64,000 bases of DNA, taken from NCBI RefSeq assembly GCF_036507355.1, contig NZ_AP027877.1; one strand, written 5' to 3'. The notes under the pieces were generated by a model. It had not been told where the DNA came from. It saw nothing but the letters and a program-made list of their open reading frames with translations, and did no database searches. Below are positions 15,720 to 50,630 of the stretch, piece by piece. The position numbers were made by a program, and so were the translations under genes. The DNA is from Escherichia coli. Lineage in GTDB: Bacteria > Pseudomonadota > Gammaproteobacteria > Enterobacterales > Enterobacteriaceae. The stretch's first letter is position 1, and the number at the start of each line of letters is the position of its first letter.

Positions 15720-17888
<2,169 letters not shown>

Positions 17889-17989
17889 CTAAGCATCACA
17901 GTGGCAGGTCGACAGGGACAAACCTGTGAGTCTGCAGGCTCGACGTTGTGACAGAAACAATCGCATCACACATCAACACCACAGCTTCC

Positions 17990-18270
17990 CGCTTCTGGTC
18001 TGTCGTCAATACTTTCGCCCAAGAACCACCTGAAGCGCCTGAAGCGCCTCCTTATCCGGCATGGCTTCAGCAAGCAGCTTCTTTGAGTCTGGCGTTCTCT
18101 TCCTCAAGCGACTCCAGGTGCTTAACCTCAAGCACCGCCATACTTCTTATGCTATGTGTAAAGAGTGGCATCGGAAATAGCGTGCTTGCAGCAGAGCTCA
18201 CGGGCAGAAACTCCAGCTTCTGCTTCACGGAGAACGCTGATTATCTGTTCGTCGGAAAAACGCTTCTTCA
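17990..18270 (-). mobile_element. Remnant of an IS3-family orfA (IS407/IS2-group-like), disrupted
   Basis: Minus-strand translation gives MKKRFSDEQIISVLREAEAGVSARELC... then ...KKYGGMEVPEVKRLKSLEEENARLKKLLAEAMLDKEAL, broken by a stop/frameshift; approximate boundaries. Confidence 0.45.
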
Positions 18271-18450
18271 TGGGAATCATATTCGGCGTCAGGGTCAATA
18301 TAAAGGCATTACTAGCATCGGGATGTACTAATCAACGGAGAGCAAGATCACATCCCTAACAGTATGACCAGATAAGCTATTCATAGTAAAAAAATATATC
18401 CACTAACCATCTAGAAGATAAGTCATGATTTTCACGGTAATGACTCCAAC

Positions 18451-24834: not shown

Positions 24835-24941
24835 GTTTCAACGTTCCTCAACAAGGAAAGGGAACGCGCTATTAACAAGATCCAAAATCGGGGCTCTGTG
24901 AGGGGGGGGTTGGGACGTCTACTGGCTCGTTTCATACCTAT

Positions 24942-25547
24942 TTGTCGGGCCGACACTTTATGTCCATTGTCGGTCCGACAAAAGAGTCGTTAGAATGCTC
25001 AAAAATGAATGCATCAACGGGAGTTCGCGTGACAGGAAAAAGGCAGACCAGCCGCCAGAAACGGTCAGATAAAATGAGGAAAAATGCAGGATTGACTCAA
25101 GTGAAGGTTTACCTGGATGAAACCACTCTGCAGTTACTGGGGTTACTTCAGGAAAATATGTCAGAAGGTGATATGAAGGGTGATGAGGTCAATATGTTCC
25201 GTAGCATGGCTATAACGGCCAGTATCCACACCCTGGCAAAAGAACGACTGGGGGAACAAGAAGTATCGCATATGGTGATCAAGAACCTCGGTGCTGACTG
25301 CCCATCCGACGAAGCGACAGAAAACCCACGTAAGTTTCTTCTCCGGACGATGATTAACCACCTGTATGATAATGGCACACACAATCCGCACCGCCGTCGA
25401 TTGTCAGAAGTGGCTGGAATTATGAATGAAAGCAGTTTCAGGAACCCGAAGAACAAAAAAGGGGGATGGAGTGAAAATGATATCAGTCACTATGTCAGCA
25501 ATGACATAAAACTGGAAAATGATACCTCGGTTGATGTACCGGGCTAA
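24942..25547 (+). CDS. Hypothetical protein, divergent from alpA
   Basis: 201-aa ORF; true start uncertain; no recognisable motif. Confidence 0.45.
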   Translation: MSGRHFMSIVGPTKESLECSKMNASTGVRVTGKRQTSRQKRSDKMRKNAGLTQVKVYLDETTLQLLGLLQENMSEGDMKGDEVNMFRSMAITASIHTLAKERLGEQEVSHMVIKNLGADCPSDEATENPRKFLLRTMINHLYDNGTHNPHRRRLSEVAGIMNESSFRNPKNKKGGWSENDISHYVSNDIKLENDTSVDVPG

Positions 25548-29665: not shown

Positions 29666-30046
29666 TTACTGGTTAACGTCTCCTTCAGACAGGTCCCTTG
29701 CAACCTGAGCCAGAGCCTGCTGCAAAAGTTTATCCCTAGAGGCCGGTTTCATGGTACGGAACAACTGTATCCACAGGTTAAGCTGCTCGTCTGCTGAAGT
29801 ATCTGCCGCATCCCGCTCACTTTTCAACGCCATCCCTGCCGCGCTGATATGGTACAGAAACCCCTTCCCACTGGTGCGTTTGCGGCGGATTTCCGGATGT
29901 AGGGCTGTGAGCTTTTCCAGACGTAGCCGCGCCCATTTCGCTGTGCCCGGCATTCCTTCCATTCCGGCAAACTGCTCTGCTGTAAGCCACTCCCCACTGT
30001 CCGTCATTCCGGCATCACAGGGCTCAGTCATCTGTTCACTGCTCAT
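29666..30046 (-). CDS. Hypothetical protein, possibly DNA-binding
   Basis: 126-aa ORF; IS5 inserted about 30 bp upstream of its start codon. Confidence 0.5.
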   Translation of the reverse strand: MSSEQMTEPCDAGMTDSGEWLTAEQFAGMEGMPGTAKWARLRLEKLTALHPEIRRKRTSGKGFLYHISAAGMALKSERDAADTSADEQLNLWIQLFRTMKPASRDKLLQQALAQVARDLSEGDVNQ

Positions 30047-30078
30047 AAAATTTCACCTCTTATCAAAGCGTTAGTTAA

Positions 30079-31272
<1,194 letters not shown>

Positions 31273-31368
31273 CTAAATGAGCGCAAATAACCACAAAAGG
31301 AACTTGATAACTTCCCTTTGTTTGCTTTTAATATCTCCGGTACTAACAACCCGGAGTGAATACATTGA

Positions 31369-31635
31369 GTAACTCAACAGATTCGCAAAAAAAAGCGAAG
31401 TAAGGGAAGTGCTGTTAACTGGCACCGGGCAGATATTGTCGCCGCCCTGCATAAGCGGGGACTTTCCCTGTCAGCTCTCTCCCGGCAACACGGGCTGGCT
31501 TCCAGGACGCTGAATAACGCTTTTGAGCGCCACTATCCGCGGGCGGAAAAGATTATTGCGGAGGCACTGAACACTACGCCCGAAACCATCTGGCCTGAGC
31601 GCTATGCAGGTAGGTCTGTCAAAAACGAAAGCTGA
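31369..31635 (+). CDS. Ner/Nlp-like small DNA-binding protein; no canonical start codon in frame (possible pseudogene)
   Basis: Open frame encodes ...VNWHRADIVAALHKRGLSLSALSRQHGLASRTLNNAFERHYPRAEKIIAEALNTTPETIWPERYAG; no in-frame ATG/GTG/TTG after the stop at 31366. Confidence 0.45.
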   Translation, partial: VTQQIRKKKRSKGSAVNWHRADIVAALHKRGLSLSALSRQHGLASRTLNNAFERHYPRAEKIIAEALNTTPETIWPERYAGRSVKNES

Positions 31636-31647: not shown

Positions 31648-32175
31648 ATGTCGACCACCATTACTGAAGTAACGGAATGCTTTGAGTACCTTTTTAGTTC
31701 CCTTTACCGGAAAGCATTTGTCAAAACCCTGCGCCTTAACGAATGCAGTGAACGGGAGTTGCTACCGCTGGTACGCTGCTACCTGCTGGGTTGGTTTGCC
31801 GACAGCGTCTCACCGGAAGTCCGGGGGAAACTGCCCGGCAGTATCTCCGGGCATGGCTATATTGATTTCGTCATTGACGATGTGGCAGTGGAGTTCGCCG
31901 TCCGTAAGCCAGGAGCCGCCCGTTCTGCACTGTCAGCCTCAGTCAACAGCACGGAGGTAAAGAAACTGATGAAGTATGACGGCAAAGCCCTGCTGGTACT
32001 GTTCGATTTTTCTGACACGCCCTATACCGAAGAACAGATTGAATCCTTCAGAAACTGGCCCTCCCTGGGCCGAGGCAACCATCGTAAATCCGCGTTCAAT
32101 GTTGCGTATTTCTTTGTGGAAAAACGCAGCCCGCTGACACCCAGGAAAATCACCAGAAATATCCGCATCCGTTAA
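31648..32175 (+). CDS. Hypothetical protein
   Basis: 175-aa ORF; start 13 nt after the Ner-like stop; no confident family. Confidence 0.55.
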   Translation: MSTTITEVTECFEYLFSSLYRKAFVKTLRLNECSERELLPLVRCYLLGWFADSVSPEVRGKLPGSISGHGYIDFVIDDVAVEFAVRKPGAARSALSASVNSTEVKKLMKYDGKALLVLFDFSDTPYTEEQIESFRNWPSLGRGNHRKSAFNVAYFFVEKRSPLTPRKITRNIRIR

Positions 32176-32228
32176 CGGTAGCGCGCATAACGGATAATGA
32201 AAACGTCAATGAAAGGAGATCACCGAAG

Positions 32229-32747
32229 ATGAGGAAAACCGCTGCCATGTTGCTTCTGGCATTTTCAGGTTGTGCCGGGGCAAAAACACTCCCCGCAGAA
32301 AATTTGCAGGGGCTGTATGAGGCTTATGCCACCCTGAATACCTGCCACCAGTATGGTTACACTGGCGATGAGGCCTTAACTGCACTGGACAAACTTATCC
32401 GCAGCAATCGCTATCAGGATAATAGCGGCAACATCATGACATTAATGAAGGACAATATTAACTATTACCATTCCCTTCAGGACCGCTTTATTCTTGAGCA
32501 GCAATTCAAAAGCGAAGGAATAAACCAGAGCGGTATCCGGCTCCAGATAAAAACCCTCTGCGACCAGATGAACGCCGCTGTTGGTGGGAAGTTGGGTGTG
32601 AAAACCCGTGTTATTTCACCGGATGACCTTCCCACCAGCGCAAAACCTGTTTTTGACAAACCGGTCACTAACAGTGCCCCGGCAATTCCGGAAGACCGAC
32701 CGATGACATGGGACAACAGTCCGGTCCAGGGTATTCCGGTTCAGTGA
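32229..32747 (+). CDS. Putative lipoprotein
   Basis: N-terminal signal peptide with lipobox-like LLLAFSGCAG. Confidence 0.6.
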   Translation: MRKTAAMLLLAFSGCAGAKTLPAENLQGLYEAYATLNTCHQYGYTGDEALTALDKLIRSNRYQDNSGNIMTLMKDNINYYHSLQDRFILEQQFKSEGINQSGIRLQIKTLCDQMNAAVGGKLGVKTRVISPDDLPTSAKPVFDKPVTNSAPAIPEDRPMTWDNSPVQGIPVQ

Positions 32748-32758
32748 GGGGTAACACC

Positions 32759-33073
32759 ATGAAGAAGCATATTATTACCGCACTGCTCATCACAACAGTA
32801 TCCGCTCCGGCGCTGGCAGCGTACCCGGTAAGCCAGCCTGCTCAGGCCGCAGAAGTGATGGTCAGTATATGCCAGCAGCAGCGTTCGGGTATGGACAAGA
32901 ACCAGGCCATCCGTAAAGTCTATGGCACCGTAAGCGACTGGCCCATAGCTTCAACAACTGAAGTTGCTGCTGCGATGGATGAAGGATGGAATTTTGCTGT
33001 ACAAAATCCAGAGATAAGTTGCGACAGAATTTATCTCATGATGATTGACATGCTGGATGGGAAAAAGGATTGA
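32759..33073 (+). CDS. Small secreted protein
   Basis: Start at ATG 32759 with GAGGGG ribosome-binding site; signal peptide MKKHIITALLITTVSAPALAA. Confidence 0.6.
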   Translation: MKKHIITALLITTVSAPALAAYPVSQPAQAAEVMVSICQQQRSGMDKNQAIRKVYGTVSDWPIASTTEVAAAMDEGWNFAVQNPEISCDRIYLMMIDMLDGKKD

Positions 33074-33379
33074 GAAACCAAGCTTAACTTAAGTTGGCAA
33101 AACTAATCTGCATCAATTAAAATTTTACATAGCAATGTGCCCTCCAGCAGGGCACAATTATTATAAACCGTCTGCTATGAGCTGTGAGTTCAATGGGTCG
33201 ATGCAACGCTATTCTTAAATGAGAAGGACATTGACCGACTACGGTCAATAAAACAGTTTGAAGCAAAATCAGATTGCCTCAGCCCCTATCGTTCAGCATG
33301 ATTTTCCTGGAGAAAAGCGGTTTTGTGGCGGACCTGAACGGGCCGCCAGGTAAAACTCTGCTGCGAGAAAGAGGCCACA

Positions 33380-34146
33380 TCAGGCGGTGTGGTTGCTATC
33401 ATCTTGCATGAGATGGTTGGCTCGAAAGACCATCATCCCTTTTTGTCGAATAGCGTCAATCCACAAATCTGCCATCCACGAGTTGATGCCATAATGCTGG
33501 ATACAACATTCACGTATCAGCCGGTGTTCGTTCGCAATGGTAGTTGGCATCAAGGCGCTGTCATCCGTATTTAAACACACCGCCAGCGGCCCGCTGCGCA
33601 GGCCGTATTGGTTAAATTTTCCGCCGGTCGCCAACCATTCTGGATTAGGTGGATTCCAGCGAAAAAGCGGGTGTTCGTGATATTTCTCAAACCGACCAAT
33701 ATAAATATTTGAGGTTGGGCAGGCTTCAAACACTAAACCAAGACGGCTGTATTTTTCGGTTAGGTAATCCTGAATGGCTTCATACAGCTTAAGCTCCCCC
33801 TGAGAAATGAAATCCTCATCTTCAGACAGGGGCGACAAATAGCTATCAGTATCGTTAGGACAACAGTTAATGCAAATAATCCGGTTGGCGGGCTCCTTTT
33901 CATGCAAACCGCTGTTGAGATAGCGTTGCCATAAACGATAAGCAGTGACATTTTTCACTGACGGCGTATGATCTTCTTGCAACGCATCCCAGTCAGGGGC
34001 CCATTCCAGCCTATTCGCGCTGACGGACTCCAAGTTAGCATAATCAGGCCAATTGCGGCGCAGCAGCCACGCCTGATAAAGTAAGTTAGGCGTATAGATA
34101 TCTTTAAATATCCGCTGCGACCAGTGATGAATTTTATCGCGCAATT
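33380..34146 (-). pseudogene. Adenosine/AMP-deaminase-like metal-dependent hydrolase, C-terminal fragment truncated by IS1
   Basis: Contains deaminase-like motif region HEHPLFRW ... LAVCLNTDDSALMPTTIANEH; frame stays open up to the IS1 terminus at 34147, no genuine start. Confidence 0.5.
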
Positions 34147-34201
34147 GGTGATGCTGCCAACTTACTGATTTAGTGTATGATGGTGTTTTTGAGGTGCTCC
34201 A

Positions 34202-34477
34202 GTGGCTTCTGTTTCTATCAGCTGTCCCTCCTGTTCAGCTACTGACGGGGTGGTGCGTAACGGCAAAAGCACCGCCGGACATCAGCGCTATCTCTGCTCT
34301 CACTGCCGTAAAACATGGCAACTGCAGTTCACTTACACCGCTTCTCAACCCGGTACGCACCAGAAAATCATTGATATGGCCATGAATGGCGTTGGATGCC
34401 GGGCAACTGCCCGCATTATGGGCGTTGGCCTCAACACGGTTTTACGTCACTTAAAAAACTCAGGCCGCAGTCGGTAA
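34202..34477 (+). CDS. insA: IS1 InsA
   Basis: 91-aa ORF near-identical to the insA of copy 1. Confidence 0.93.
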
Positions 34478-34899
34478 CCTCGCGCATACAACCGGGCAGT
34501 GATGTGATTGTCTGCGCTGAAATGGACGAACAGTGGGGCTACGTCGGTGCTAAATCACGTCAGCGCTGGCTGTTTTACGCGTATGACAGGATACGGAGGA
34601 CAGTTGTGGCGCACGTTTTCGGTGAACGCACTCTGGCCACACTGGAGCGTCTTCTGAGCCTGCTGTCGGCCTTTGAGGTCGTGGTATGGATGACGGATGG
34701 CTGGCCGCTGTATGAATCACGCCTGAAGGGAAAGCTGCACGTTATCAGCAAGCGTTACACTCAGCGCATTGAGCGACATAATCTGAATCTGAGACAACAT
34801 CTGGCAAGGCTGGGACGGAAGTCACTGTCGTTCTCAAAATCGGTGGAGCTGCATGACAAGGTCATCGGGCATTATCTGAACATAAAACACTATCAGTAA
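34396..34899 (+). CDS. insB: IS1 InsB
   Basis: 167-aa ORF near-identical to the insB of copy 1. Confidence 0.93.
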
Positions 34900-35069
34900 G
34901 TTGGAGTCACTACCGTAGAAGTTAAATCAGGAAAATCGAAAAAAATGAAACGTTCGGCATTGTCGTCGAGTTCCGCTTAATGACGTATCCATCCCGTTTT
35001 CCCCTTCACGTTTTCATGTTTGATAGAGGGCAAAATTGAGCCCTCTCAATCAAGATAATGAGTGAAAAC

Positions 35070-38000
35070 CTATACCGTCCAGCTGTTCGACACCACTTCA
35101 GCCTGCTTCAGTATCAGTTCAACTGCATAAGGTGTTTTATCTGGCGGATACTTGTACTTACGCAGCGTCTGACGCACCAGAATACGTAACCGCGCACGCA
35201 CGCTTTCTCGCACCTGCCAGTCTACGGTTGTGGACTGGCGCAATTTTAACGTGACTTCGATAGCCAGTTTCTTAAGGACGTCATCACCCAGCTCCCGTAC
35301 CGCACTTTCGTTTTCTGCCAGCGCATCGTAGAACGCGATTTCGTCCGGGTTTAGCCCCAGCGCTTCATCACGCGCCATCGCTTCCTGAAACTCTTTTGCC
35401 ATCTGGATCAGTTCTTCAATCACCTGCGCAGTTTCAATGGCGCGGTTATTGTATTTGAGAAGCACGGCTTTCAGGCGATCTGAGTATTTCTTCTCCTGCA
35501 CCACGTTGTTTTTGGTGCGGGCATGAATGCCGTCGTTCAGCAGTTTCTCCAGCAACTCGACTGCCAGATTACGCTGCGGCAATTCGCGCACTTCTTCCAG
35601 AAACTCGTCTGACAACAATCCAATATTCGGCTTATCCAGACCCGCCAGCGCAAACACATCATCCACGCCCGTCGCAATAATGGCGTTATCGAGGATTTTA
35701 CCGAGTAGCGTATTTTTCTCTGACTGACTGAATTTTTTGTCGGTTGTCGTCAGCTTGATAATCGCCACTTTCACCGCCGACAAAAACGCGATCTCTTTTT
35801 GCAAGGGTTTAGCTTCATCTAACGTACTGCACAGCGACCAGGCTTTGTTCATCGCCAGCACGACATCGAAAAAGCGCTTCTTACCGTCATCAAGGCCCAG
35901 CACATAATCTGCGGCTTTGAGTAAAAACCGTTGGGGCACCTCTGCAAAACCGGTGTAATCAAACCCGGCGGCGGTTGGTGTTTTGGCAAACATTCCATGA
36001 ATCACATCCAGCTTTTCAAGCAGGATGGAGAACGCTTCATGAGCATCGACTGTCGTCTGTCCTTTACCTTTTGAATCGGTATAAGTTTTCAGCGCCTGTT
36101 TCAGTTCATTGGCGATACCGATGTAATCCACCACTAAACCGCCCGGTTTATCTTTGAAGACGCGGTTGACGCGCGCAATGGCCTGCATCAGATTATGCCC
36201 GCGCATCGGTTTGTCGATATACATGGTATGACAACATGGCGCATCAAACCCGGTAAGCCACATATCGCGCACAATCACCAGTTTCAACGGGTCGTTGAGA
36301 TCTTTAAAGCGCGCTTCAAGGCGTTTTTTGGTTTGCTTATTGTAGATGTGCGGCTGAAGGAATTTATTATCGGAGGCTGAGCCGGTCATGATGATTTTGA
36401 TTTCACCTTTCTCGACGTCATCACTGTGCCATTCCGGGCGTAGAGCCACCAGCGCATCATACAGCTTCACGCAGATCTCACGGCTCATGGCAACAATCAT
36501 TGCTTTGCCATTCATTGTGGCGTTACGTGCCTCAAAATGCTGAACCAGATCGGCGGCCACCTCATTGATACGAGGTTCAGAACCAACCAGTTTTTCCAGA
36601 CGGCTCCAGTCACTTTTGGTTTTCTCTTTCTGATCGGTCTCTTCATCTTCGACCAGCTCATCCACCTGATTAGACAGCGTTTCCAGCTCTTCGTGGTTGA
36701 GGTCGAGTTTTGCCAGGCGCGATTCATAGTAGATAGGCACGGTTGCGCCATCTTCCACCGCATCCTGTATATCGTAGATAGAGACGTAATCACCAAACAC
36801 CGCGCGGGTGTCTTTATCTTCGGAAGAAACCGGTGTTCCGGTAAAGCCCATAAACGACGCATTGGGTAACGCATCGCGCATATGTTTGGCGTAACCGTAT
36901 TTATAAGCGCCAGTCTCCCGGTTCAGCGTGGCGCTAAGACCATACTGGCTGCGGTGCGCTTCATCGGAAATGACGACGATATTGCTGCGCAGGTTTAGCG
37001 CCGGGTGAGTCTGTTCGCCATCAAGCGGGGCAAATTTTTGTACGGTGGTAAAAATAATCCCGCCTGATTCACGGACATTGAGCATCTCGCGGAGCTGGTC
37101 GCGATCGTTTGCCTGTAACGGTTCCTGCTTAAGCAAATCCTGTGCCTGGCAGAAGGTGGCATACAGTTGGCCGTCGAGATCGTTACGGTCGGTCACCACC
37201 ACGATGGTCGGGTTGTTCATTTCCGCTTGTTGTAGCAGTTTTCCGGCGTAACAACACATCGAGATACTCTTACCGGAACCCTGCGTATGCCACACCACAC
37301 CGGCTTTTTTACTGCCTGGCGTGATGTTGCTGCGCAGCGGCAAGTGTTTACCGGTAGAGGCCACAATCGTCGCCGTCACCGCTTCACGTACTGCGTGGAA
37401 TTGGTGGTAAGCGGCAATCTTTTTAATCAGTCGTTTGCCGTCGCTTTCAAACAGGATGAAGTAACGAATGTAGTCGAGCAGCAGTTCGCGGTTAAAGAAC
37501 CCTTTTACTACCGTTTCAAGCTGCCATTCAAACAGCGGTTTGTCGTCTTCATTAGACAGCGTTTTCCACGGCAAGAAGCGCTCTTCGTTCGCGGTGAGAG
37601 AGCCAATACGGGCGTTGTAGCCATCGCTGACCACCAGCGCTTCGTTGCAGATGAACAGATCGCTGAGTTCGTTTTTATAGGTCTGCAACTGATTAAATGC
37701 CGCCCAGATATCGGCATTAGCATCAATCGGGCTTTTCAGCTCAATCACTACTACTGGCAATCCGTTGATATAGCAGATAACGTCCGGGCGACGTACCTGC
37801 TTCGTTCCCTGGATGGCCACCTGATTCACCACCGTAAAGTGGTTATTATTTGGGTGGTTAAAATCCATCAGTAGCGCTTTGTCGTGGATAACTTTGTCAT
37901 CCTGCTTGTACTGCACCGGCACGCCGTCGAGCAGCAGGTGATGGAAGGCTTTGTTACTGACGACCAGATCCGGGCTTTGCGCATGGGCGATACGCAGTAT

Positions 38001-38204
38001 CACCTCATCCAGCACGGCAACCGGGAGATGTGGGTTAATCTTTTGCAACTGCTCCAGTAGCACCGGGCGCAAAAACACATCGTGGAACGACGCACGCAGC
38101 GGATTGTTGCCATCTGGCGCAATATCCGGCCCGTGCAATACTTCCCAGCCCAGTTCAGCAAACCATTGCAGGCTTTGCTGTTCTAAATCGTCTTCGCTCA
38201 GCAT
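35070..38204 (-). CDS. hsdR: Type I restriction enzyme R subunit (HsdR)
   Basis: 1044-aa ORF with helicase motifs (Walker [13 protein letters not shown] box [10 protein letters not shown]). Confidence 0.9.
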
Positions 38205-39391
38205 CAGGTTTCCTCTGTCTCGGTTTCTTCCATTTCTTCGGGCACGTTTGAAATCTCTTTGAGCGCCATATTCAGTGGGGCAATAAAGGGATCTAACGCT
38301 TTTTCAAATGCCGTCAGGTTTACCAGTAGCCAGTCGATCATTTCAGGCCAGTTGGCTTCATCAAGGCTGATGGCCGGGCTGGCATAGGAAATTCGACACG
38401 ATTTTTTACCCGGCAGAGGTTCCCACTTAAGCGCATGGCCAAACGCGTTTTCAATTGCCTCTTTGCGTTCATGTAGCCAGTTAAAAGCAAAGGTATTGCT
38501 CTCTGCGGAAGCTTTGGCAATCCACAGCTCAACCCGAATCTCTTTTTTACTGAAAATCAGGTTATACGACACCGCGCTAATACCAGAGCCCGCACTGATC
38601 CAGTGATCGGTAGAGGGGCTGATATTGTTATATAAGTGGCAGGAGCTGGCTTTGAGGCGCTCCAGCATCTTTGTCCAGAAAGCTTTACGCATTAATTGGA
38701 CTGGCTTTACTCCGCCGCTGACGGATTGTTCTTCCGCCTCTTTTTGCGCCATACCGATCATGTAAGATTCTGCTTCCGGTGTGGGGATAACCTGACGGAT
38801 ATCAACGAATACATCGTCGTTGAACTTATAGGGTTTAACCTTAAAGCACTGTACCCGCAGACCAAATTGCATGAGCCACAGGGCAGTGTTGGTCACCTCT
38901 TTGCGAAAGTTGGCTGCGACCATGATGATTCGCTGTGTACGGCTCTGGTTGATTAAGGCTTCATCCAGCGTTTCATATTCGAGGAATTCAGCAAGCACCT
39001 CTGCCGCCGGGCGATTTTCCTCTGGGTCGTATTTATCCAGATAAAGCTGGAAGATCTGCAGAATTTGCTCTTTACGCAGGTTGGCGCAATACCCGGCATA
39101 TTTGAGCGCTTGCCAGACGACGTCGCGACCTGAATCATCGAGCTTATTCTCGATGATCACCAGATTGCCTTTTTTATCGATAGCCAGCAGGTCAAGGCGC
39201 TCTTTGGTGTCGTCAAAACCGGCGAACTCTTTCTGTATAATCAGTAGTTCATCGTCATTATCGCGAGTTAACGCTTGGGGATTCTGCGCCAGCCATTCCT
39301 GCAGATTGCCACGTTCGGTAAAACCAAGACTACTGAAAGAGACTTCCTGTAGGGAGTGTAAGCTGTTAGTCGGCGTATCAACTTTATACAT
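38204..39391 (-). CDS. PD-(D/E)xK nuclease-like protein embedded between hsdS and hsdR
   Basis: N-terminal D...ExK-like motif ([18 protein letters not shown]); ATG at 39391 overlaps the hsdS stop, and its stop overlaps the hsdR start. Confidence 0.6.
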
Positions 39392-40769
39392 TTTCCACCT
39401 CACTGACTGCCTGTTCTGCTTCCTGCAGGGTAATTTCACCCGAGAGAAGTTTGGGGAGAAGGGTGTCGCGGAGTTGGGTTAGTGATTCAGTTTGTACACT
39501 GAGCGATTTAATCTCATTAAATAAATGTGTACATTTGGCATGAAATAACTCCAATACTTTAGCATCAGGCTGAGCGATTTTAATTCCTGAGAAAGTAGAC
39601 GTATTGACATTTAAAGTTGCACTACCTGCGCTACCTAAAATGTGAAGATGATCTTTCAATCCCAACATACAAAAATAAAGATAATAGAGTAAGGAACTCT
39701 TATGAGGTGTAACAGAATTTATTTGCTGATTGGTATGAGATGGTTCATTGGTGATAGAAACAACACCAATAGTAGCTATACAACTAACACAGATAGAATT
39801 TGCGGGTACAAGTTTTTTTAGTTGCGACTTTGAACCGGCTTCGCTTAAATATTCATTAGTTTTAAGCACAAAAAGTTGCCCATGCATATCTGGTATCTTT
39901 ATGAATGGAACATCACTACCGTAATACTCTGGTTCTTTTTTTGACGGAGTTTTGCCACAAGTAACCTTCCCCATCTCACTAATTGACGCCACCCCCCATC
40001 CTTTAGGAATCGCCCCTAACTCACTGTCCTGCATCGCTGCCGGAAACAGTTCTGCCGTGGCTTTTAACTCGGCATATTGCTCAGGGTGTTCACGCTCAAA
40101 AACCGCCAGCGCATCCGCATCTTTCCCAGAAATGGCGGTCATGGCGGCAAGTGTTGCGTCTGCCTGCGAACCGCCCGCATCCAGTACTGCCATTTTGGCT
40201 TTTACGGGGTCAAAATCAACAAACCAACTTTTGAACAGGGCTTGTGCCATTTGTTCGAGGGTTTGGTTGATGCGATTATTACTATCAATTTTTTTACTTA
40301 ACGTAAAAATTAGCTTTGTACATCTTTTTTGATATTTTAAAGAAGGAATCTTTATTTTGTAGCTCAGCATGGCCCCTTTATCACCTCGAGGCATTTTTGC
40401 GCCCTTGGATGTAAGATGGCTATAATTAATAAAATCATCACTGCTTAAAATCAAATGTAAATATTCACTTGTGAGTTTTTCATGTGTAGTCCTAAATACT
40501 AGCACATCAGGAGAAACACCTCCGTAAAATGTGGCAAACCATACTTTTTTAAAGTACGTTCGAATATTAGAAAATAAAGTATCACCTATTTCAAAAGAAT
40601 TAAATTTGTTGACATCAGGGATGCCTGATGAAATAGTTACACCCTGACGGTCAGGCAACATATTTTCCGTGGAAATATAATTAGTAACATCTATAATAGA
40701 TGCATCACATTTTTTTGTGACTATCTCTACAAAGTTACCTAACTCAGTTTCGATGAACTCAAAACTCAT
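39384..40769 (-). CDS. hsdS: Type I restriction-modification specificity subunit (HsdS)
   Basis: Two target-recognition-domain architecture, AT-rich; start at 40769 overlapping the hsdM 3' end. Confidence 0.88.
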   Translation of the reverse strand: MSFEFIETELGNFVEIVTKKCDASIIDVTNYISTENMLPDRQGVTISSGIPDVNKFNSFEIGDTLFSNIRTYFKKVWFATFYGGVSPDVLVFRTTHEKLTSEYLHLILSSDDFINYSHLTSKGAKMPRGDKGAMLSYKIKIPSLKYQKRCTKLIFTLSKKIDSNNRINQTLEQMAQALFKSWFVDFDPVKAKMAVLDAGGSQADATLAAMTAISGKDADALAVFEREHPEQYAELKATAELFPAAMQDSELGAIPKGWGVASISEMGKVTCGKTPSKKEPEYYGSDVPFIKIPDMHGQLFVLKTNEYLSEAGSKSQLKKLVPANSICVSCIATIGVVSITNEPSHTNQQINSVTPHKSSLLYYLYFCMLGLKDHLHILGSAGSATLNVNTSTFSGIKIAQPDAKVLELFHAKCTHLFNEIKSLSVQTESLTQLRDTLLPKLLSGEITLQEAEQAVSEVENV

Positions 40770-42468
40770 AACCCAGCCCCCCCAGATTCGCCTTAATCTG
40801 CGCTTCCAACTTCGCGCTCTCTTCAAGCTGATCTTTAAGCTGCGCCGTCAGGCGCGCCATCTTCTCGGCAAACGGTTCATCATCTTCAGCTTGCTCGGCG
40901 GCACCAACGTAGCGCCCAGGGGTCAGCACAAAGTCGTTTTTCTGGATATCCTCCAGCGTTGCTGAGAAGCAGAATCCGGCTTCGTCTTCGTAGTCTTTAT
41001 CCGTCTGCCAGGCGTGGAAGGTATCGGCAATTCTGGCGATATCTTCGCGGGTAAAGTCGCGCAACACGCGATCTTTCATATAACCAATCTGGCGCGCGTC
41101 GATAAACAGCACTTCACCTTTACGGTGCGCTTTGCCGTTGCCACCGGATTTATCTTTGGTCAGGAACCAGATACAGGCTGGGATTTGGGTGTTGGTAAAC
41201 AGTTGCCCTGGCAGCGCCACCATACATTCCACCAGATCCGCTTCAATCAGGTTGCGGCGGATCTCGCCTTCATTGTTAGTGTTGGAACTCATCGAACCGT
41301 TCGCCAGCAGCAGCGCCATCGAACCTTTTGGCGCGAGGTGGTGGATCATGTGCTGCATCCACGCAAAGTTGGCGTTGCCCTGCGGCGGTGTGCCGTATTT
41401 CCAGCGCACGTCGTTTTCCAGCTTCGCGTTCCACCACTCCTTCATGTTGAACGGCGGGTTTGCCATCACGAAGTCAGCGCGCAGATCCGGGTGCTGGTCG
41501 TCTAGCAGGGTGTCGGCGTTTTTGGCACCAAAGTTAAAGTCGATACCGCGGATCGCCATGTTCATCGCCGCCAGCTTCCAGGTGGTCGGATTCGACTCCT
41601 GGCCGTAAACGGAAATATTGCGCTTCTGCTCAGCGGCGTTGTAATTCTTTTCGCCCGCGTGCTCTTCAATGAAACGGTCGCTGGAAACGAAGAACCCGCC
41701 GGAACCCATTGCCGGGTCATACACCCGCCCGTTGTACGGTTGCAGCATTTCGACAATCAGGGTCACGATGCTTTTTGGCGTGTAGTACTGACCTCCCTGT
41801 TTACCTTCCGCCAGCGCGAATTGCCCCAGGAAATATTCGTAAACGTGGCCGAGAATATCTTTGCTCTTTAAGCTGAGTTTCTCGCCGTTATATTCCGGGT
41901 TGCTGAAGTTTGCGTCAGAGAAGGTATTAATCAGCCCGGTCAGCACCTCGTTACTCAGTTGATACTGGCTGATGCGATTCAGAATACCTTTCAGTTTCGG
42001 GTTGGTTTTTTCGATTTCATCCAGCGCGTTATCCACCAGCCAGGAGACAGAGCGCAGCGTCACATCCTTGCCGGTGGTTTCATCCACCCACAGCACGGTG
42101 CCGGTCGGCAACATGGCTTTGTTTTTCAGCGTGTCCCAGCGCGCGGCTTTTGGCACCCAGAAGATGTTCTTTTCGGTGTAGTAATCTTCAACTTCCAGCT
42201 CTTCCTGGATAGCCTGAGCGTATTCTTCGTCGGAACCGTAATCATCGCGCGACATGGCGTAGATGTTGTCGGGATTACCGACATCGCGGAACAGGGTCGT
42301 CAGCTCCTGCTGACGCGCCTCGAAGGCATCAGAAACATACTTCAGGAAGATTAGCCCCAGCACCACATGCTTGTAGTTGGCGGCATCCATATTGGCGCGC
42401 AGTTTGTCGGCGGCCTTCCAGAATTTGTTATCCAGCTCGTTCAGAAATAGCTGTTCAGCGTTGTTCAT
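40759..42468 (-). CDS. hsdM: Type I restriction-modification DNA methyltransferase (HsdM)
   Basis: N6-adenine methyltransferase motif NPPF (VMANPPFNMKEW); start at ATG 42468 with GAGGA ribosome-binding site. Confidence 0.92.
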   Translation of the reverse strand: MNNAEQLFLNELDNKFWKAADKLRANMDAANYKHVVLGLIFLKYVSDAFEARQQELTTLFRDVGNPDNIYAMSRDDYGSDEEYAQAIQEELEVEDYYTEKNIFWVPKAARWDTLKNKAMLPTGTVLWVDETTGKDVTLRSVSWLVDNALDEIEKTNPKLKGILNRISQYQLSNEVLTGLINTFSDANFSNPEYNGEKLSLKSKDILGHVYEYFLGQFALAEGKQGGQYYTPKSIVTLIVEMLQPYNGRVYDPAMGSGGFFVSSDRFIEEHAGEKNYNAAEQKRNISVYGQESNPTTWKLAAMNMAIRGIDFNFGAKNADTLLDDQHPDLRADFVMANPPFNMKEWWNAKLENDVRWKYGTPPQGNANFAWMQHMIHHLAPKGSMALLLANGSMSSNTNNEGEIRRNLIEADLVECMVALPGQLFTNTQIPACIWFLTKDKSGGNGKAHRKGEVLFIDARQIGYMKDRVLRDFTREDIARIADTFHAWQTDKDYEDEAGFCFSATLEDIQKNDFVLTPGRYVGAAEQAEDDEPFAEKMARLTAQLKDQLEESAKLEAQIKANLGGLGYEF

Positions 42469-42830
42469 GTAAATCCTCGGGGTAGATCGCAGCGAAAGAG
42501 CAACCATGCCTTATCGCAAATTCAGTTTTGGAATGCAGTTCGCAAAATGATACCCGGTACACTTACGATTACAAATGCGCGGTATAAAGAAGTTTGCATT
42601 TGATCGGTGAATAATAGGAAACTCAGTCACTGTTTCGTCTGCAAAATCAGCCATTTCGCCTTCATACGTAGTTCTTCGGTTGAATAGTAAGGTCTATCAT
42701 GCTGCATCGAACGGTGATTTTGATGGATGTTGGAAGTGAGTAGCTGTACGTAATTTTTGATTAAAAGTAATCAAAATGTTGCCAATGGTTATGCTATCGT
42801 GTGTTTTTTGAATATATAACAGGTAAAACT

Positions 42831-43724
42831 ATGTCCTGGCTTAATTCTGTCTTATTGGCGCTTACCTCGGTGCAACCTTATATGGTACCGGCAACCGTTA
42901 TCGGCCTCGTCAGTTTTGCATTCCTCTGTTTTATTTTCTTTTATTTTTTTAGAGCAGTTAAAATTATTAACGGCCTGAAAAAATATACTCAGTCAATTAA
43001 TGGCATCGAAAATAATGAGCCTGGTAATCAGCTTCAGCATCTGCAAAGTTTGTTTGTACAGCCTGAGTTAAAGCACGCCTGGAATGAATTCGAAGAATCG
43101 TTGCACTCACAATATGAACTGGAGGACGGGGAAGAGAAAATCGTCCGTATTAGGGCTACTGCACCGAGCGCCAGTTTCTTCTCGGAGCAACAACTGGTCG
43201 ATATTCCGCTGAACACCGAATTTTTCAAACACCTGCCCGGTATTCTGACCGGTGTGGGGATTATCGGTACCTTCTACGGTCTGATGATTGGTCTCAACCA
43301 CTTCGACCCCAGCACACCAGAGCAGGTCTCCAGCAGCGTCAATAATCTGCTTCGCGATGTGCTGTACGCCTTCCTCGGTTCAGCATTTGCGATTACGTTC
43401 TCTATCCTTATCACCTGGCTGGAGAAATTCTGTCTGGCGAAATGCTACAAATATCTGGAAAAATTCACCGCAGCTCTCGACGCCCTCTATGACAGCGGTG
43501 TTGGCGAGGAGTACCTTGCCTCACTGGTAAAATCCAGTAATGAAAGCGCGACCCAGGCACGCCATCTGAAAGAGAGCCTGGTTACCGATTTACGCGATAT
43601 GCTGCTGCATCTGGCCAACAGCCAGAAAGTGGAAAACGAGCGGCTAGCGACCACCCTCAGCACCACCTATCGCGAAACAGGACAACAGTTTGCCGAGCAA
43701 GTCAGCGGTGCGATTGAAAACTGA
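42831..43724 (+). CDS. MotA/TolQ/ExbB-like membrane protein, 3' end interrupted by IS629-like element
   Basis: Three predicted TM helices; motif LPGILTGVGIIGTFYGLMIGL resembles MotA/ExbB proton-channel proteins; the stop codon TGA is the first 3 nt of the IS. Confidence 0.55.
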   Translation: MSWLNSVLLALTSVQPYMVPATVIGLVSFAFLCFIFFYFFRAVKIINGLKKYTQSINGIENNEPGNQLQHLQSLFVQPELKHAWNEFEESLHSQYELEDGEEKIVRIRATAPSASFFSEQQLVDIPLNTEFFKHLPGILTGVGIIGTFYGLMIGLNHFDPSTPEQVSSSVNNLLRDVLYAFLGSAFAITFSILITWLEKFCLAKCYKYLEKFTAALDALYDSGVGEEYLASLVKSSNESATQARHLKESLVTDLRDMLLHLANSQKVENERLATTLSTTYRETGQQFAEQVSGAIEN

Positions 43725-43775
43725 ACCGCCCCGGGAATCCTGGAGACTAAACTTCCTGAGAAAGAGGTAAACAGG

Positions 43776-44102
43776 ATGACTAAAAATACTCGTTTTTCCC
43801 CCGAAGTCCGTCAACGGGCAGTCCGTATGGTTCTGGAAAGTCAGAGCGAATATGACTCACAATGGGCGACAATTTGTTCCATTGCTCCAAAGATTGGCTG
43901 TACGCCGGAGACTCTGCGTGTCTGGGTTCGCCAGCATGAGCGGGATACCGGGGGCGGTGATGGAGGGCTCACCACCGCTGAACGTCAGCGTCTGAAAGAG
44001 CTGGAACGTGAAAATCGTGAACTGCGCCGCAGTAACGATATCCTTCGCCAGGCTTCCGCTTATTTTGCGAAGGCGGAGTTCGACCGCCTCTGGAAAAAAT
44101 GA
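43776..44102 (+). CDS. IS3-family transposase OrfA (IS629-like)
   Basis: 108-aa [31 protein letters not shown]... Confidence 0.9.
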
Positions 44103-44989
44103 TGCCACTGCTGGATAAGCTGCGTGAGCAGTACGGGGTCGGACCGCTATGCAGCGAACTGCATATTGCCCCGTCAACGTATTACCACTGTCAGCAACAG
44201 CGACATCATCCGGATAAACGCAGTGCCCGTGCGCAGCGCGATGACTGGCTGAAGAAAGAGATACAGCGCGTATACGATGAAAATCACAAGGTATACGGTG
44301 TGCGTAAAGTCTGGCGTCAGTTGTTACGGGAAGGTATCAGAGTGGCCAGATGCACTGTGGCACGTCTCATGGCGGTTATGGGACTTGCCGGTGTTCTCCG
44401 GGGTAAAAAGGTCCGTACGACCATCAGCCGGAAAGCCGTTGCCGCAGGCGACCGCGTAAACCGTCAGTTCGTGGCAGAACGACCTGACCAGCTGTGGGTG
44501 GCTGATTTTACTTACGCCAGCACATGGCGGGGCTTCGTCTATGTGGCGTTCATCATTGATGTGTTTGCCGGATACATCGTGGGGTGGCGGGTCTCATCGT
44601 CCATGGAAACGACATTCGTGCTGGATGCACTGGAGCAGGCGTTATGGGCCCGTCGACCGTCCGGCACGGTCCATCACAGTGATAAAGGTTCTCAGTATGT
44701 ATCGCTGGCCTACACACAGCGGCTTAAGGAAGCCGGATTACTGGCATCAACAGGAAGTACAGGCGACTCGTATGACAACGCGATGGCGGAGAGCATCAAT
44801 GGTCTTTACAAAGCGGAGGTAATACACCGTAAGAGCTGGAAAAACCGTGCAGAAGTGGAACTGGCCACACTCACGTGGGTGGACTGGTATAACAATCGAC
44901 GATTGCTGGAAAGGCTGGGCCATACTCCTCCGGCAGAAGCAGAAAAAGCTTATTATGCTTCCATCGGAAACGATGATCTGGCAGCCTGA
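44099..44989 (+). CDS. IS3-family transposase OrfB (IS629-like, DDE domain)
   Basis: 296-aa ORF overlapping the orfA stop. Confidence 0.9.
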
Positions 44990-45153
44990 GTTCACAGATA
45001 AAACACTCTCCAGGAAACCCGGGGCGGTTCACACTATTATTTCTCCGGTTAGCCTACAACAACGTTTTTATCAGAAGCTCAACCAGCAGATAATAGAAAT
45101 GAAAAACCCATTGCAGTGAAATTATTTTTGACAACATACAGCAGGAGTAAAAA

Positions 45154-45999
45154 ATGTTACGTGGTTCAGAAAGAAAAGAAGCATTAGCCAGTCTCAAAAG
45201 TGCAACTAACCGTTATGAAGTACAGGCTAAAGACACCCAGGATGAGATCACTGCCCTCTTTCTGTTACGCCAGAAATGCAGTAAGGACCTGATTGCCCGT
45301 GGTGAAAATTTTGTTAATCGACTGGCGAATACACCGAAAGAGTTTGATAAATCCTGGAGCGAATTGAAAGCGGAAATCGCTGAATTTGATAACGTGGTGG
45401 AAAAACTGGAAGAAGAATACCGCGCATCACATATTGGTAAAGGAACGGCTGCTGCGGGGGTTGCCGTTGGGGCGGGGGTCGCCGCATTTGCCCCTACGGC
45501 TGCGCTGGCGGTCGCAACAACTTTTGGTACAGCATCCACGGGTACCGCTATTGCTACGTTAAGCGGAGCTGCCGCAACAAATGCAGCCCTGGCATGGCTC
45601 GGCGGCGGCGCACTGGCTGCGGGTGGCGGTGGCATGTCAGCAGGAAGCGCACTACTGGCTCTGGCGGGTCCAATAGGCTGGGGGATTGGTGCTGTAGGCA
45701 TCGCTGGCGGAACCTTACTAGCCCGTCGCAAAAACGGTAAAATCATTGATGAAGCACAACAGGAAGAGCGCCAGGTTCGCGCAAAAACCAGCGAACTTCG
45801 CGTGATGGAACGTGGTGCGCAAGAACTCAAGATGCTCACATCCGAGCACTATCATGGTACTGAAAGCATTATTGATGTGCTGGAAAAGGCTGCGCCTCAA
45901 GACTATTGCCAGTTTAATACCCATCAGAAAGATCAATTAGGGGCATTGATTAACCATATCAATGCATTATCAAAACTGATCAACAAGAAAATCCAGTAA
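45154..45999 (+). CDS. Hypothetical coiled-coil protein with central Gly/Ala-rich transmembrane segment
   Basis: AGGAG ribosome-binding site; about 100-aa Gly/Ala-rich glycine-zipper-like hydrophobic region flanked by coiled-coil-like sequence. Confidence 0.6.
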   Translation: MLRGSERKEALASLKSATNRYEVQAKDTQDEITALFLLRQKCSKDLIARGENFVNRLANTPKEFDKSWSELKAEIAEFDNVVEKLEEEYRASHIGKGTAAAGVAVGAGVAAFAPTAALAVATTFGTASTGTAIATLSGAAATNAALAWLGGGALAAGGGGMSAGSALLALAGPIGWGIGAVGIAGGTLLARRKNGKIIDEAQQEERQVRAKTSELRVMERGAQELKMLTSEHYHGTESIIDVLEKAAPQDYCQFNTHQKDQLGALINHINALSKLINKKIQ

Positions 46000-47444
46000 T
46001 GAGCATTAACCATAATACAGTTGGCGACCAGCTTATCGGCAGCGCGGTTAACGCCATTAATCAGACCCGCATTGATAATGAACTGTTAAAACTATCGCAG
46101 CAGGATCGTGCATTTGAGTTGGCTGGCGAACAAATGCAAAAGGTGCGTGATTTCATCGCGTCACCGGGTAACATCCTGGGCTCAATGAGCACCAAACACG
46201 GTGAAATTGCTGAGCAGGTAGAAGTTGGCGTGCGCAATGCTCGCCAGGCAATAGAAGAAAGGGTTCAGGATGCCTCTGATCTTAGCGCCACGTTTGACGG
46301 AGTGGGTCGAACCGCTCCGGCGGATTATATGATAGATGGCGTTGACGTGCAGTCAAAGTTTATCAACGGAGTTAATAATAACCTGAACCATGTCCTTCAG
46401 CACATGGAAACCTATCCCAATTTCACCCGGGGAGAATCCTTTTACCATATCCCCAAAGACTCCTGGCAAACGATTCAGGATGTTATTGATGGGAAGCCGG
46501 TGGAGGGCTTGAGCGAAAAAACAATACAGGCTATCAGGGATAAAGTTGCAGAAATTGAAAGTACAACGGGAAGATCCTTTAATGATGTCGTGCGTCCTGG
46601 AGTTTCTGATTACAAAGATGTTCAGTGGGGAAAAATTGACGAAACTCTTGATAAACATGATCAGGAATTAGCGGAACAGAACGAGGCAAAAAAAGCAGAA
46701 ATTATTGACGATCACCAACCCTCCCTAAGTGAAGGCATGCGTGCAACCGCAATGGGAGCCGCTTTCGGTGGAACCTTTGCTCTTGTAACAGGTATATATA
46801 GCAAATACCGTGACGGTAAAAATATATTTCGTGGAGATTTCAACAGACAGGACTGGCAGGATGTCGGCTTAGATACATTGAAAGGTGCCGCTATTGGCGG
46901 TGTATCCGCCGGAGCAATTTATACCCTGACCAATTATGCCTCTCTGGGAGCACCGTTCGCCAGCGCGCTGGTCACTGCCGCTAAAGGTGTAAGCAATCTT
47001 GCTCTCTCCTATCAGCGCGGTGAGATTAATGCTGATGAATTTACCGATCTTGGCCTTATCATCTGCGCGGAATCGGCCATCGTTGGCGCAATGTCTGTCG
47101 CAGGTCAGGCAATCATCCCTGTGCCTGTTTTGGGGGCATTGGTTGGTTCTATCTCAGGGAAGTTTATGGTTACCGTAGCTAAAAATCTGGACAGTAAAGC
47201 ACGCCAATTGCTGGCGAAAAAAATGGAGCAATTTACATGTCGCTTAAGTGAGATTGAGCAGAAAGCACTCAACCGAATTTTGAACGAGTTCGCGGCGCTG
47301 GGTGAGCTTACCGCAGCTGCATTTAGCGTGGAAAACAATCGCCGGTTGCTGGAAGCAAGCATCACGCTTGCCCAAGCCCACGGTGTTGAAGAGGCGAAGA
47401 TAATCAAAAATGCGGATGATCTTGACACATTTATGATGGCGTAG
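45999..47444 (+). CDS. Hypothetical membrane protein (N-terminal soluble domain, C-terminal Gly-zipper TM bundle)
   Basis: Start overlaps upstream stop (TAATG); C-terminal GxxxG/A-rich hydrophobic helices. Confidence 0.6.
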   Translation: MSINHNTVGDQLIGSAVNAINQTRIDNELLKLSQQDRAFELAGEQMQKVRDFIASPGNILGSMSTKHGEIAEQVEVGVRNARQAIEERVQDASDLSATFDGVGRTAPADYMIDGVDVQSKFINGVNNNLNHVLQHMETYPNFTRGESFYHIPKDSWQTIQDVIDGKPVEGLSEKTIQAIRDKVAEIESTTGRSFNDVVRPGVSDYKDVQWGKIDETLDKHDQELAEQNEAKKAEIIDDHQPSLSEGMRATAMGAAFGGTFALVTGIYSKYRDGKNIFRGDFNRQDWQDVGLDTLKGAAIGGVSAGAIYTLTNYASLGAPFASALVTAAKGVSNLALSYQRGEINADEFTDLGLIICAESAIVGAMSVAGQAIIPVPVLGALVGSISGKFMVTVAKNLDSKARQLLAKKMEQFTCRLSEIEQKALNRILNEFAALGELTAAAFSVENNRRLLEASITLAQAHGVEEAKIIKNADDLDTFMMA

Positions 47445-47480
47445 CACTCGAATAAAAATTACAGCAAGGATAAAACCACA

Positions 47481-50003: not shown

Positions 50004-50192
50004 TGAAAGGTATAAATTCATTACCATCGTGATATGGTGCTTCAGACGAAGCAAACTTAAATACCATTAACCCCATGATACTATTGTAAAATCCAAAAAA
50101 AATAATAGTAATCATCATAATGAACTGGTTCGAACAGACTGCGGAAGAGTATGGAGAATTAACAAATAAGGGGGCATTTGCCCCCTTCATCA

Positions 50193-50618: not shown

Positions 50619-50630
50619 ATCAATATCTCA

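What the first reader, a model, noticed from the sequence alone, without database searches (positions are those of the whole stretch)
31273..31635. Ner/Nlp-like regulator gene lacking a canonical start codon, downstream of a frameshifted IS5
The frame encoding a Ner-like HTH protein opens after a TGA at 31366 and contains no ATG, GTG or TTG before the conserved NWHRADIV region. An A8 run at 31387-31394 sits in the expected N-terminal region. It is either a pseudogene, uses a non-canonical start, or is affected by homopolymer slippage.
Basis: seen in the sequence. Interest (0 to 1): 0.3.

Follow-up and report, generated by a model that had tools for sequence, protein, structure and literature searches.

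The report
Frameshifted EnrR/Ner-type regulator pseudogene
A small DNA-binding regulator gene in an E. coli genomic island has been broken by one extra A in a run of seven A's, which cuts its TTG start codon off from the rest of the protein; it is an ordinary pseudogene that NCBI's annotation pipeline already flags in identical genomes.

Summary
The frame that encodes the HTH protein opens after TGA 31366-31368. It contains no ATG, GTG or TTG anywhere up to its stop at 31633-31635, and an A8 run lies at 31387-31394.

The cause is simple. Intact alleles have A7, and the gene starts at TTG 31365, with GGAG 8 nt upstream. The extra A shifts the frame after codon 10. Translation from the TTG therefore ends at TAA 31401-31403 after 12 codons, and the HTH domain is left in a frame with no start.

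- A7 is found in 33 other complete E. coli genomes and in 8 metagenome contigs.
- A8 is found only in this window and three related Chinese isolates (ET729, ET826, ET881). All four also share the ISKpn26 insertion 92 bp upstream of the start.
- PGAP annotates exactly 31365..31635 as "transcriptional regulator, frameshifted" in those isolates.

The repaired 89-aa protein is 74% identical to EnrR of Edwardsiella piscicida (PDB 7F9H). EnrR is a Ner-type nucleoid-associated protein that antagonises H-NS. Its N-terminal extension is essential for function, and that is the segment the frameshift hits.

Sequencing error, phase variation and recoding are each unlikely. This is ordinary gene decay and of low interest.

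The parts
31365..31635 (+). EnrR/Ner-type (HTH_35) regulator pseudogene. This is the full extent of the gene as it exists in intact alleles (89 codons plus stop there).
   Evidence: PGAP annotates this exact range as 'transcriptional regulator, frameshifted' in ET881 and ET729. The intact allele WP_001442951.1 aligns with only the 1-nt indel inside the gene.
31353..31356 (+). GGAG Shine-Dalgarno, 8 nt before the TTG start.
   Evidence: Read from the sequence. It is conserved in alleles 69% identical, where the start is GTG at the same position.
31365..31403 (+). Residual ORF from the true TTG start: MSNSTDSQKKAK, then TAA.
   Evidence: Translation of frame 0.
31387..31394 (+). A8 homopolymer, which is the lesion. 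Every intact allele has A7.
   Evidence: Alignment A1, direct reading of the tract in loci L002-L006 and L010-L019, and hit lengths in 33 complete genomes.
31369..31635 (+). Orphan reading frame that carries the rest of the N-terminal extension and the whole HTH domain. It has no ATG, GTG or TTG.
   Evidence: HTH_35 matches residues 18-84 of the repaired protein.
31304..31332 (+). Candidate promoter found by eye: TTGATA, 17 nt, TTTAAT. It lies between the IS end and the gene. This is an inference only.
   Evidence: Read. The consensus scan did not call it. The TTGATAA is one arm of an inverted repeat that spans the IS insertion point in intact loci.
30079..31272 (+). ISKpn26 (IS5 family) copy inserted in the divergent intergenic region, 92 bp upstream of the TTG. 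One C is deleted at 30674, which splits the transposase into ORFs 30147-30677 and 30662-31126.
   Evidence: Terminal inverted repeats and flanks, the empty site in AR_0128, and comparison with an intact plasmid copy.
30075..30078 (.). Left flank TTAA of the IS. The matching right flank at 31273-31276 is CTAA, so the 4-bp target duplication is imperfect.
   Evidence: The empty site in AR_0128 reads GTTAGTTAAATGAGC.
29666..30046 (-). Divergent 126-aa gene, always paired with the regulator. The IS now sits 32 nt upstream of its ATG.
   Evidence: Conserved neighbour. It gives weak hits to Mu-type transposase and repressor N-terminal families: phrog_310 at 2e-7 and phrog_7148 at 2e-5.
31648..33073 (+). 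Three co-oriented downstream genes (31648-32175, 32229-32747, 32759-33073) that follow the regulator in related islands. Their function is unknown.
   Evidence: The first begins 13 nt after the regulator's stop. All three follow the regulator in the alleles at 92% identity or more; more divergent alleles keep only part of the set. No significant Pfam, NCBIfam or PADLOC family was found.

Best explanation
This is a recently inactivated copy of an EnrR/Ner-type small DNA-binding regulator carried on an E. coli genomic island. In the working gene, ribosomes bind GGAG (31353-31356), start at TTG 31365 and make an 89-aa protein. That protein has a basic N-terminal extension followed by a Ner-type HTH domain. 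In this lineage a replication slip added one A to the A7 tract at codons 8-10. Ribosomes starting at the TTG now stop at TAA 31401-31403 after 12 codons. The HTH domain lies in the +1 frame, which has no start codon, so essentially no functional protein is made. Shown here: the lesion, the true start, the family, the population distribution and the shared ancestry with the IS insertion. Inferred: loss of function, and a possible reduction in expression of the three downstream genes because about 230 nt are left untranslated. Also inferred, by homology to EnrR only: the intact protein binds AT-rich DNA and modulates H-NS-silenced island genes.
For: - The only difference inside the gene between the window and intact alleles is A8 versus A7. 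Removing one A gives an ORF identical to WP_001442951.1.
- PGAP flags the identical sequence as 'frameshifted'.
- The start position and N-terminal peptide are conserved in alleles only 69% identical in DNA. Those alleles use GTG and have an interrupted tract, CAGAAAAAG. The N-terminus also aligns residue for residue with the experimentally studied EnrR, at E 1e-37 and 74% identity.
- A7 is present in 33 complete E. coli genomes with alleles at 92% identity or more and in 8 of 8 metagenome contigs covering three protein variants.
- A8 occurs only in this window and in ET729, ET826 and ET881. All four also carry the same ISKpn26 copy.
- These four assemblies are four different structural variants of the island. 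The window differs from ET881 by 65 SNPs in the flanking core genes but only 3 in the island. The extra A is therefore inherited and not a one-off error.
- Other homopolymers of 7-8 nt in the window lie inside intact long ORFs. Indels against AR_0128 are rare, 8 in about 31 kb.
[quoted passage not shown] Any product lacking a proper N-terminus would therefore be defective.
Against: No sequencing reads are available, so the tract length cannot be confirmed at read level. The three matching genomes come from one study, and I could not find its sequencing platform. Low-level rescue by slippage on A8 cannot be excluded by sequence alone. No expression or protein data exist for this locus.
Confidence: 0.86

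Rival explanations
1. Sequencing or assembly error: the true genome has A7 and the gene is intact.
For: Homopolymers are the classic site of long-read miscalls. The three matching assemblies come from the same project and place. One other long run in the window, T8 at 9737 (intergenic), is T7 in both ET881 and AR_0128.
Against: A8 appears in four assemblies that differ structurally and, in flanking core genes, by SNPs. Three other genomes from the same project (ET665, ET915, ET490) carry the one-base-shorter intact allele, so the pipeline does not systematically miscall this tract. At least 14 other runs of 7-8 nt lie inside intact long ORFs. PGAP found only IS-related frameshifts elsewhere in the 50 kb around the gene.
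Confidence: 0.07
2. Recoding or leaky expression: the A8 allele still yields functional protein. This could happen through RNA polymerase slippage that makes A7 or A10 transcripts, through +1 ribosomal slippage of tRNA-Lys on AAA-AAA, or through a non-canonical start such as ATT 31381.
For: A8 is near the run length at which transcriptional slippage becomes appreciable. Selection against runs is evident at 9 nt in many bacteria, and 8 A's are productive in some organisms (PMC1088944). A +1 re-pairing of tRNA-Lys on the A-run would regenerate the exact wild-type peptide (derived).
Against: The required change is -1 A or +2 A. In E. coli, slippage at A/T runs gives mostly single-base insertions, and deletions within runs are very rare (PMC5574713). 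The -1 ribosomal slip favoured by A_AAA_AAA leads into the wrong frame. No stimulatory element is evident. Homologues do not conserve a shifted arrangement and all are single ORFs. ATT 31381 has no Shine-Dalgarno sequence and would remove part of the essential N-terminus.
Confidence: 0.04
3. Phase-variable contingency locus: the A-tract is a reversible on/off switch for the regulator.
For: The tract lies early in the coding sequence, as in classical phase-variable genes. The intact protein is homologous to a global regulator of horizontally acquired genes.
Against: Tract length is almost invariant. A7 occurs in 33 genomes and 8 metagenome contigs, and no A6 or A9 was seen. All A8 copies share one origin, marked by the same IS. 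Divergent alleles interrupt the run with G. A 7-8 nt run is short for a high-frequency switch in mismatch-repair-proficient E. coli (established knowledge).
Confidence: 0.03

Closest known systems
EnrR (ETAE_0051) of Edwardsiella piscicida, PDB 7F9H/7F9I; Ma et al., Nucleic Acids Res 2022 (PMC9023278)
   Same: - 74% identity over 80 residues, phmmer E 1e-37, aligned from residue 1.
- Same length class (89 vs 90 aa) and same PF13693 domain.
- Same basic N-terminal extension (SQKKRSKGSA), including Arg11 and Ser12.
- 14 of 17 published DNA-contact residues are identical.
- Same kind of setting: a decayed prophage-like island with integrases, transposases and a RadC-type gene.
   Different: The copy here is a frameshifted pseudogene. 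Gln17, whose Q17G mutant binds DNA poorly in EnrR, is Val here. A36 is S and R62 is K. The host is E. coli. No target genes are known. The EnrR consensus AATAAATNATTTATT is not found near the gene.
Phage Mu Ner (PDB 1NEQ/1NER)
   Same: Same fold family, with E 2e-24 over residues 15-81. It is a small HTH repressor transcribed divergently from a neighbour that has weak Mu-type N-terminal DNA-binding similarity, which recalls the Mu c/ner arrangement.
   Different: Mu Ner is shorter at the N-terminus; EnrR is 10 residues longer there. There are no Mu transposition or structural genes here. The identity of the divergent gene as a c-type repressor is only weakly supported.
E. coli Nlp/SfsB (Ner-like protein)
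   Same: Same HTH_35 domain, with partial similarity to NCBIfam NF007670.
   Different: It scores 81 bits against an equivalog cutoff of 150, so it is not SfsB. It is island-borne and present in only about 10% of complete E. coli genomes (554 of 5426).
Homopolymer frameshift pseudogenes of bacterial accessory genes
   Same: A single-base expansion of a short A-run within the first codons, clonal distribution, and co-occurrence with IS insertions and IS-mediated deletions in the same island.
   Different: Nothing distinguishes it from this class.

Membership tests
Pfam PF13693 HTH_35 (Ner-type winged HTH) | Profile match above the gathering threshold | tested here: met
   The repaired protein scores 97 bits against a cutoff of 25, E 6e-28, over residues 18-84.
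EnrR-type nucleoid-associated regulators | Full-length sequence similarity to EnrR, including the N-terminal extension (alpha0, aa 7-16) | tested here: met
   E 1e-37 and 74% identity from residue 1. R11, S12 and H20 are conserved.
EnrR-type nucleoid-associated regulators | Conservation of the published DNA-contact residues | tested here: inconclusive
   14 of 17 are identical. However, Q17, which is functionally important in EnrR, is V here. A36 is S and R62 is K.
EnrR-type nucleoid-associated regulators | Encoded in a horizontally acquired, prophage-like island | tested here: met
   The neighbourhood holds integrases, AlpA, CbtA/YeeU, RadC, IS elements and defence cargo. The gene is present in 554 of 5426 genomes. 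EnrR's own context is described.
EnrR-type nucleoid-associated regulators | Binds AT-rich DNA and competes with H-NS | not testable with these tools
   This needs EMSA or ChIP with the A7 protein.
EnrR-type nucleoid-associated regulators | Intact, translatable ORF in this window | tested here: not met
   The +1 A frameshift leaves a 12-codon ORF from the TTG, and the HTH frame has no start.
SfsB/Nlp (NCBIfam NF007670 equivalog) | Score at or above the curated equivalog cutoff | tested here: not met
   81 bits against a cutoff of 150.
Mu-type c/ner early regulatory switch | Ner homologue divergent from a Mu c-type repressor | tested here: inconclusive
   The Ner similarity is strong. The divergent 126-aa protein gives only weak PHROG hits (2e-7 and 2e-5) and no Pfam or NCBIfam hit.
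Phase-variable contingency gene | Tract length varies among close relatives and across lineages | tested here: not met
   A7 occurs in 33 genomes and 8 metagenome contigs. A8 occurs only in one IS-marked lineage. No other lengths were seen.
Programmed frameshift / recoding site | The two-frame arrangement and shift site are conserved in homologues | tested here: not met
   All homologues are single ORFs. Divergent alleles break the A-run.

The most novel reading that the evidence does not exclude
The A8 allele is not dead but hypomorphic or reversible. On this reading, rare -1 or +2 slippage on the A-run (by RNA polymerase, the ribosome or DNA replication) supplies a trickle of, or an on/off switch for, an EnrR-like H-NS antagonist. 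That antagonist would tune expression of the neighbouring defence-system cargo of the island.
Probability: 0.04. Interest if true: 0.4.

Novelty: already known. Interest (0 to 1): 0.1.

Why it matters
It matters little beyond correct annotation. The gene should be labelled as a frameshifted EnrR/Ner-type regulator pseudogene with its start at TTG 31365, not as a gene with an unusual start codon.

The small added value is the link to EnrR. About one in ten complete E. coli genomes carries an uncharacterised homologue of a protein shown in Edwardsiella to counteract H-NS. In E. coli it sits at the conserved edge of an island whose variable cargo consists of anti-phage systems (RADAR, Zorya, type I R-M, SIR2). 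The natural A7/A8 pair of alleles would be a ready-made isogenic contrast for anyone asking whether the E. coli protein regulates that cargo.

Tried and rejected
- **Non-canonical start in the HTH frame.** Only ATT, CTG and ATC codons occur. ATT 31381 has no Shine-Dalgarno sequence and would remove essential N-terminal residues. Rejected.
- **-1 ribosomal frameshift on A_AAA_AAA.** It leads into the wrong frame. Rejected.
- **The A7 allele's in-phase A_AAA_AAG heptamer as a conserved recoding site.** Divergent alleles have G_AAA_AAG and no second-frame conservation. Rejected.
- **Autoregulatory operator.** The EnrR consensus motif with up to 3 mismatches has no match between 30000 and 33000. 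The repeat search of the intact intergenic region found only short 7-nt arms. I make no claim here.
- **Promoter scan.** It called nothing between the IS and the gene. The TTGATA-17-TTTAAT candidate was found by eye only.
- **Sequencing platform of the ET strains.** No paper is held.
- **Functions of the 126-, 175-, 172-, 104- and 180-aa neighbours.** Nothing was found in Pfam, NCBIfam or PADLOC apart from weak PHROG hits.
- **Source of the window.** It is not identical to any of ET729, ET826 or ET881.
- **Searches not run.** I did not run the large protein-homology searches or structure prediction. The PDB sequence hit to EnrR already settled the family.

Full report
**Observation.**
- TGA lies at 31366-31368.
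- The following frame reads VTQQIRKKKRSKGSAVNWHRADIVAALHKRGLSLSALSRQHGLASRTLNNAFERHYPRAEKIIAEALNTTPETIWPERYAGRSVKNES and stops at 31633-31635.
- A8 occupies 31387-31394.
- The frame has no ATG, GTG or TTG at all, not only before NWHRADIV.

**The lesion.** In another frame a TTG lies at 31365, 8 nt after a GGAG at 31353-31356. From it the sequence reads MSNSTDSQKKAK and then TAA at 31401-31403. Deleting one A from the run fuses this start to the HTH frame and gives an 89-aa ORF.

This is what related genomes contain. A megablast against 5,426 complete E. coli genomes found three identical copies (ET729, ET826, ET881) and a set of 99.5%-identical copies one base shorter. Alignment shows that the only difference inside the gene is A8 versus A7. 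In the A7 genomes PGAP annotates an intact 89-aa protein, WP_001442951.1, starting at that TTG. In ET729 and ET881 PGAP annotates the range that equals window 31365..31635 as 'transcriptional regulator, frameshifted'.

**Is the TTG the true start?** Alleles only about 69% identical in DNA keep the Shine-Dalgarno sequence. They have GTG at the same position and encode the same N-terminal peptide (M-R-NSTASQKKQIKGS..NWHRADIV). Their A-run is interrupted (CAGAAAAAG). The N-terminus also aligns residue for residue with EnrR, whose structure is solved and numbered from Met1. The start is therefore well supported.

**Population picture.** With the IS excluded from the query, 554 of 5,426 genomes carry a homologue.
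- Among alleles at 92% identity or more, 3 have the 387-nt form and 33 have the form one base shorter. All 33 are annotated as intact.
- I read A7 directly in six loci.
- A scan of public metagenome contigs that allowed 4-12 bases between the flanks found 8 contigs. All have A7, and they cover three protein variants.
- No A6 or A9 was seen anywhere.

**Real mutation or error?** No reads are available, but several lines favour a real, inherited change.
- The four A8 sequences are four different structural versions of the island. ET826 is the longest. The window lacks 7.2 kb of Zorya genes next to an IS3. ET729 lacks window 33277-43721. ET881 lacks window 34915-52572.
- The window differs from ET881 by 65 SNPs in the core genes left of the island but only 3 in about 20 kb of island.
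- Other genomes from the same project (ET665, ET915, ET490) carry the one-base-shorter intact allele.
- Across about 31 kb shared with AR_0128 there are only 8 indels against roughly 150 substitutions.
- At least 14 other 7-8-nt homopolymers in the window lie inside intact long ORFs.

I put sequencing error at about 7%.

**What the gene is.**
- The repaired protein matches Pfam HTH_35 (PF13693) at 97 bits and PHROG 769 'transcriptional repressor'.
- It falls well below the SfsB/Nlp equivalog cutoff, at 81 bits against 150.
- Against solved structures the best hit is EnrR of Edwardsiella piscicida (7F9H), with E 1e-37 and 74% identity from residue 1. Mu Ner is second at E 2e-24.

EnrR is a genomic-island-encoded, Ner-like nucleoid-associated protein. 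It binds AT-rich DNA and displaces H-NS. Its N-terminal extension (alpha0, aa 7-16, with Arg11, Ser12 and Gln17) contacts the minor groove. [quoted passage not shown] Here 14 of the 17 published contact residues are identical; Gln17 is Val. The genomic setting is also alike, with integrases, AlpA, CbtA/YeeU, RadC and IS elements. The A-tract encodes Lys9-Lys10 at the start of that essential extension.

**Consequence.** Canonical translation yields a 12-residue peptide and no HTH domain.

Rescue is unlikely. Restoring the frame needs -1 A or +2 A in the mRNA, or a +1 ribosomal shift. In E. coli, slippage in A/T runs gives mainly single-base insertions and almost never deletions (PMC5574713). 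Selection against slippery runs is typically evident from 9 nt (PMC1088944). The -1 ribosomal shift favoured by A_AAA_AAA enters the wrong frame. I give meaningful leaky expression about 4% and a phase-variable switch about 3%.

**Surroundings.** ISKpn26 (30079-31272) is inserted in the 120-bp divergent intergenic region. It lies 92 bp upstream of the TTG and only 32 nt upstream of the ATG of the divergent 126-aa gene. PGAP's label of 'programmed frameshift' for it looks like an annotation convenience.

The IS and the A8 always occur together, so their order cannot be resolved. The IS probably affects the 126-aa gene more than the regulator. A plausible promoter (TTGATA-17-TTTAAT, 31304-31332) remains between the IS and the TTG, but it was found by eye and the scan did not call it.

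**Verdict.** This is an ordinary, already-annotated frameshift pseudogene of a known regulator family, and of low interest. The one useful refinement is the family assignment: it is EnrR-type rather than generic Ner/Nlp.

Noticed in passing
window 33380-34144 (-) and 34147-34914: The 254-aa ORF is the C-terminal remnant of the RADAR deaminase RdrB (NCBIfam RdrB model positions 599-850). It is cut off by an IS1X2 copy. Related islands (AR_0128, JNU) carry intact rdrA/rdrB at this spot.
   Followed up: partly
window 34915-52572; junction at 43717-43722: By comparison with ET826, the island cargo is a type I R-M system, a DUF4268 gene, type I Zorya and SIR2-family genes. In the window, Zorya is reduced to about the first 890 nt of zorA1 by a 7.2-kb deletion that abuts an IS3. 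ET729 and ET881 carry different IS-adjacent deletions of the same region.
   Followed up: partly
window 30662-30677 (site 30674): The ISKpn26 transposase is split by a single C deletion (GGCATG to GGATG), which is not in a homopolymer. PGAP labels the joined product WP_224465515.1 a 'programmed frameshift', although intact ISKpn26 copies encode one 326-aa ORF.
   Followed up: yes
window 30075-30078 and 31273-31276: The flanks of the IS are TTAA and CTAA rather than a perfect 4-bp target duplication. The empty site reads ...GTTAGTTAAATG.... A point change after insertion is the simplest reading, but I did not test it.
   Followed up: no
window 29666-30046 (-): The 126-aa gene divergent from the regulator gives weak hits to Mu-type transposase and repressor N-terminal families (phrog_310 at 2e-7, phrog_7148 at 2e-5) and none in Pfam. 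Together with the Ner-type gene it resembles a Mu c/ner switch. The IS insertion 32 nt upstream of its ATG probably separates it from its promoter.
   Followed up: partly
window 31386-31395 in A7 alleles (L002 6113-6121): The intact allele has a perfect in-phase A_AAA_AAG heptamer, the dnaX-type -1 slippery site, at codons 8-10. Divergent alleles have G_AAA_AAG, so it is not a conserved recoding signal.
   Followed up: yes
L007 1653-1850 (E. coli RM14723): PGAP calls a 65-aa short form of the homologue from an internal GTG, although the full-length frame from the conserved GTG start is open. This is an annotation inconsistency.
   Followed up: no
window 9737-9744 and 24902-24909: The intergenic T8 between prs and dauA is T7 in both ET881 and AR_0128. 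The G8 just upstream of the annotated start (24960) of the gene at 24960-25547 is G6 in AR_0128. Both are length-variable homopolymers outside annotated genes.
   Followed up: no
window 15879-18271: An IS21-family element (IS100kyp-like) has frameshifted istA and istB. A 1-nt deletion at 16116 and a 9-nt repeat-unit difference at 18029 are seen against AR_0128.
   Followed up: no
window 34453 (IS1X2 A6C site): The only indel between the window and ET826 over 24 kb is at the IS1 frameshift motif. TTAAAAAAC is A6 here and A5 in ET826.
   Followed up: no
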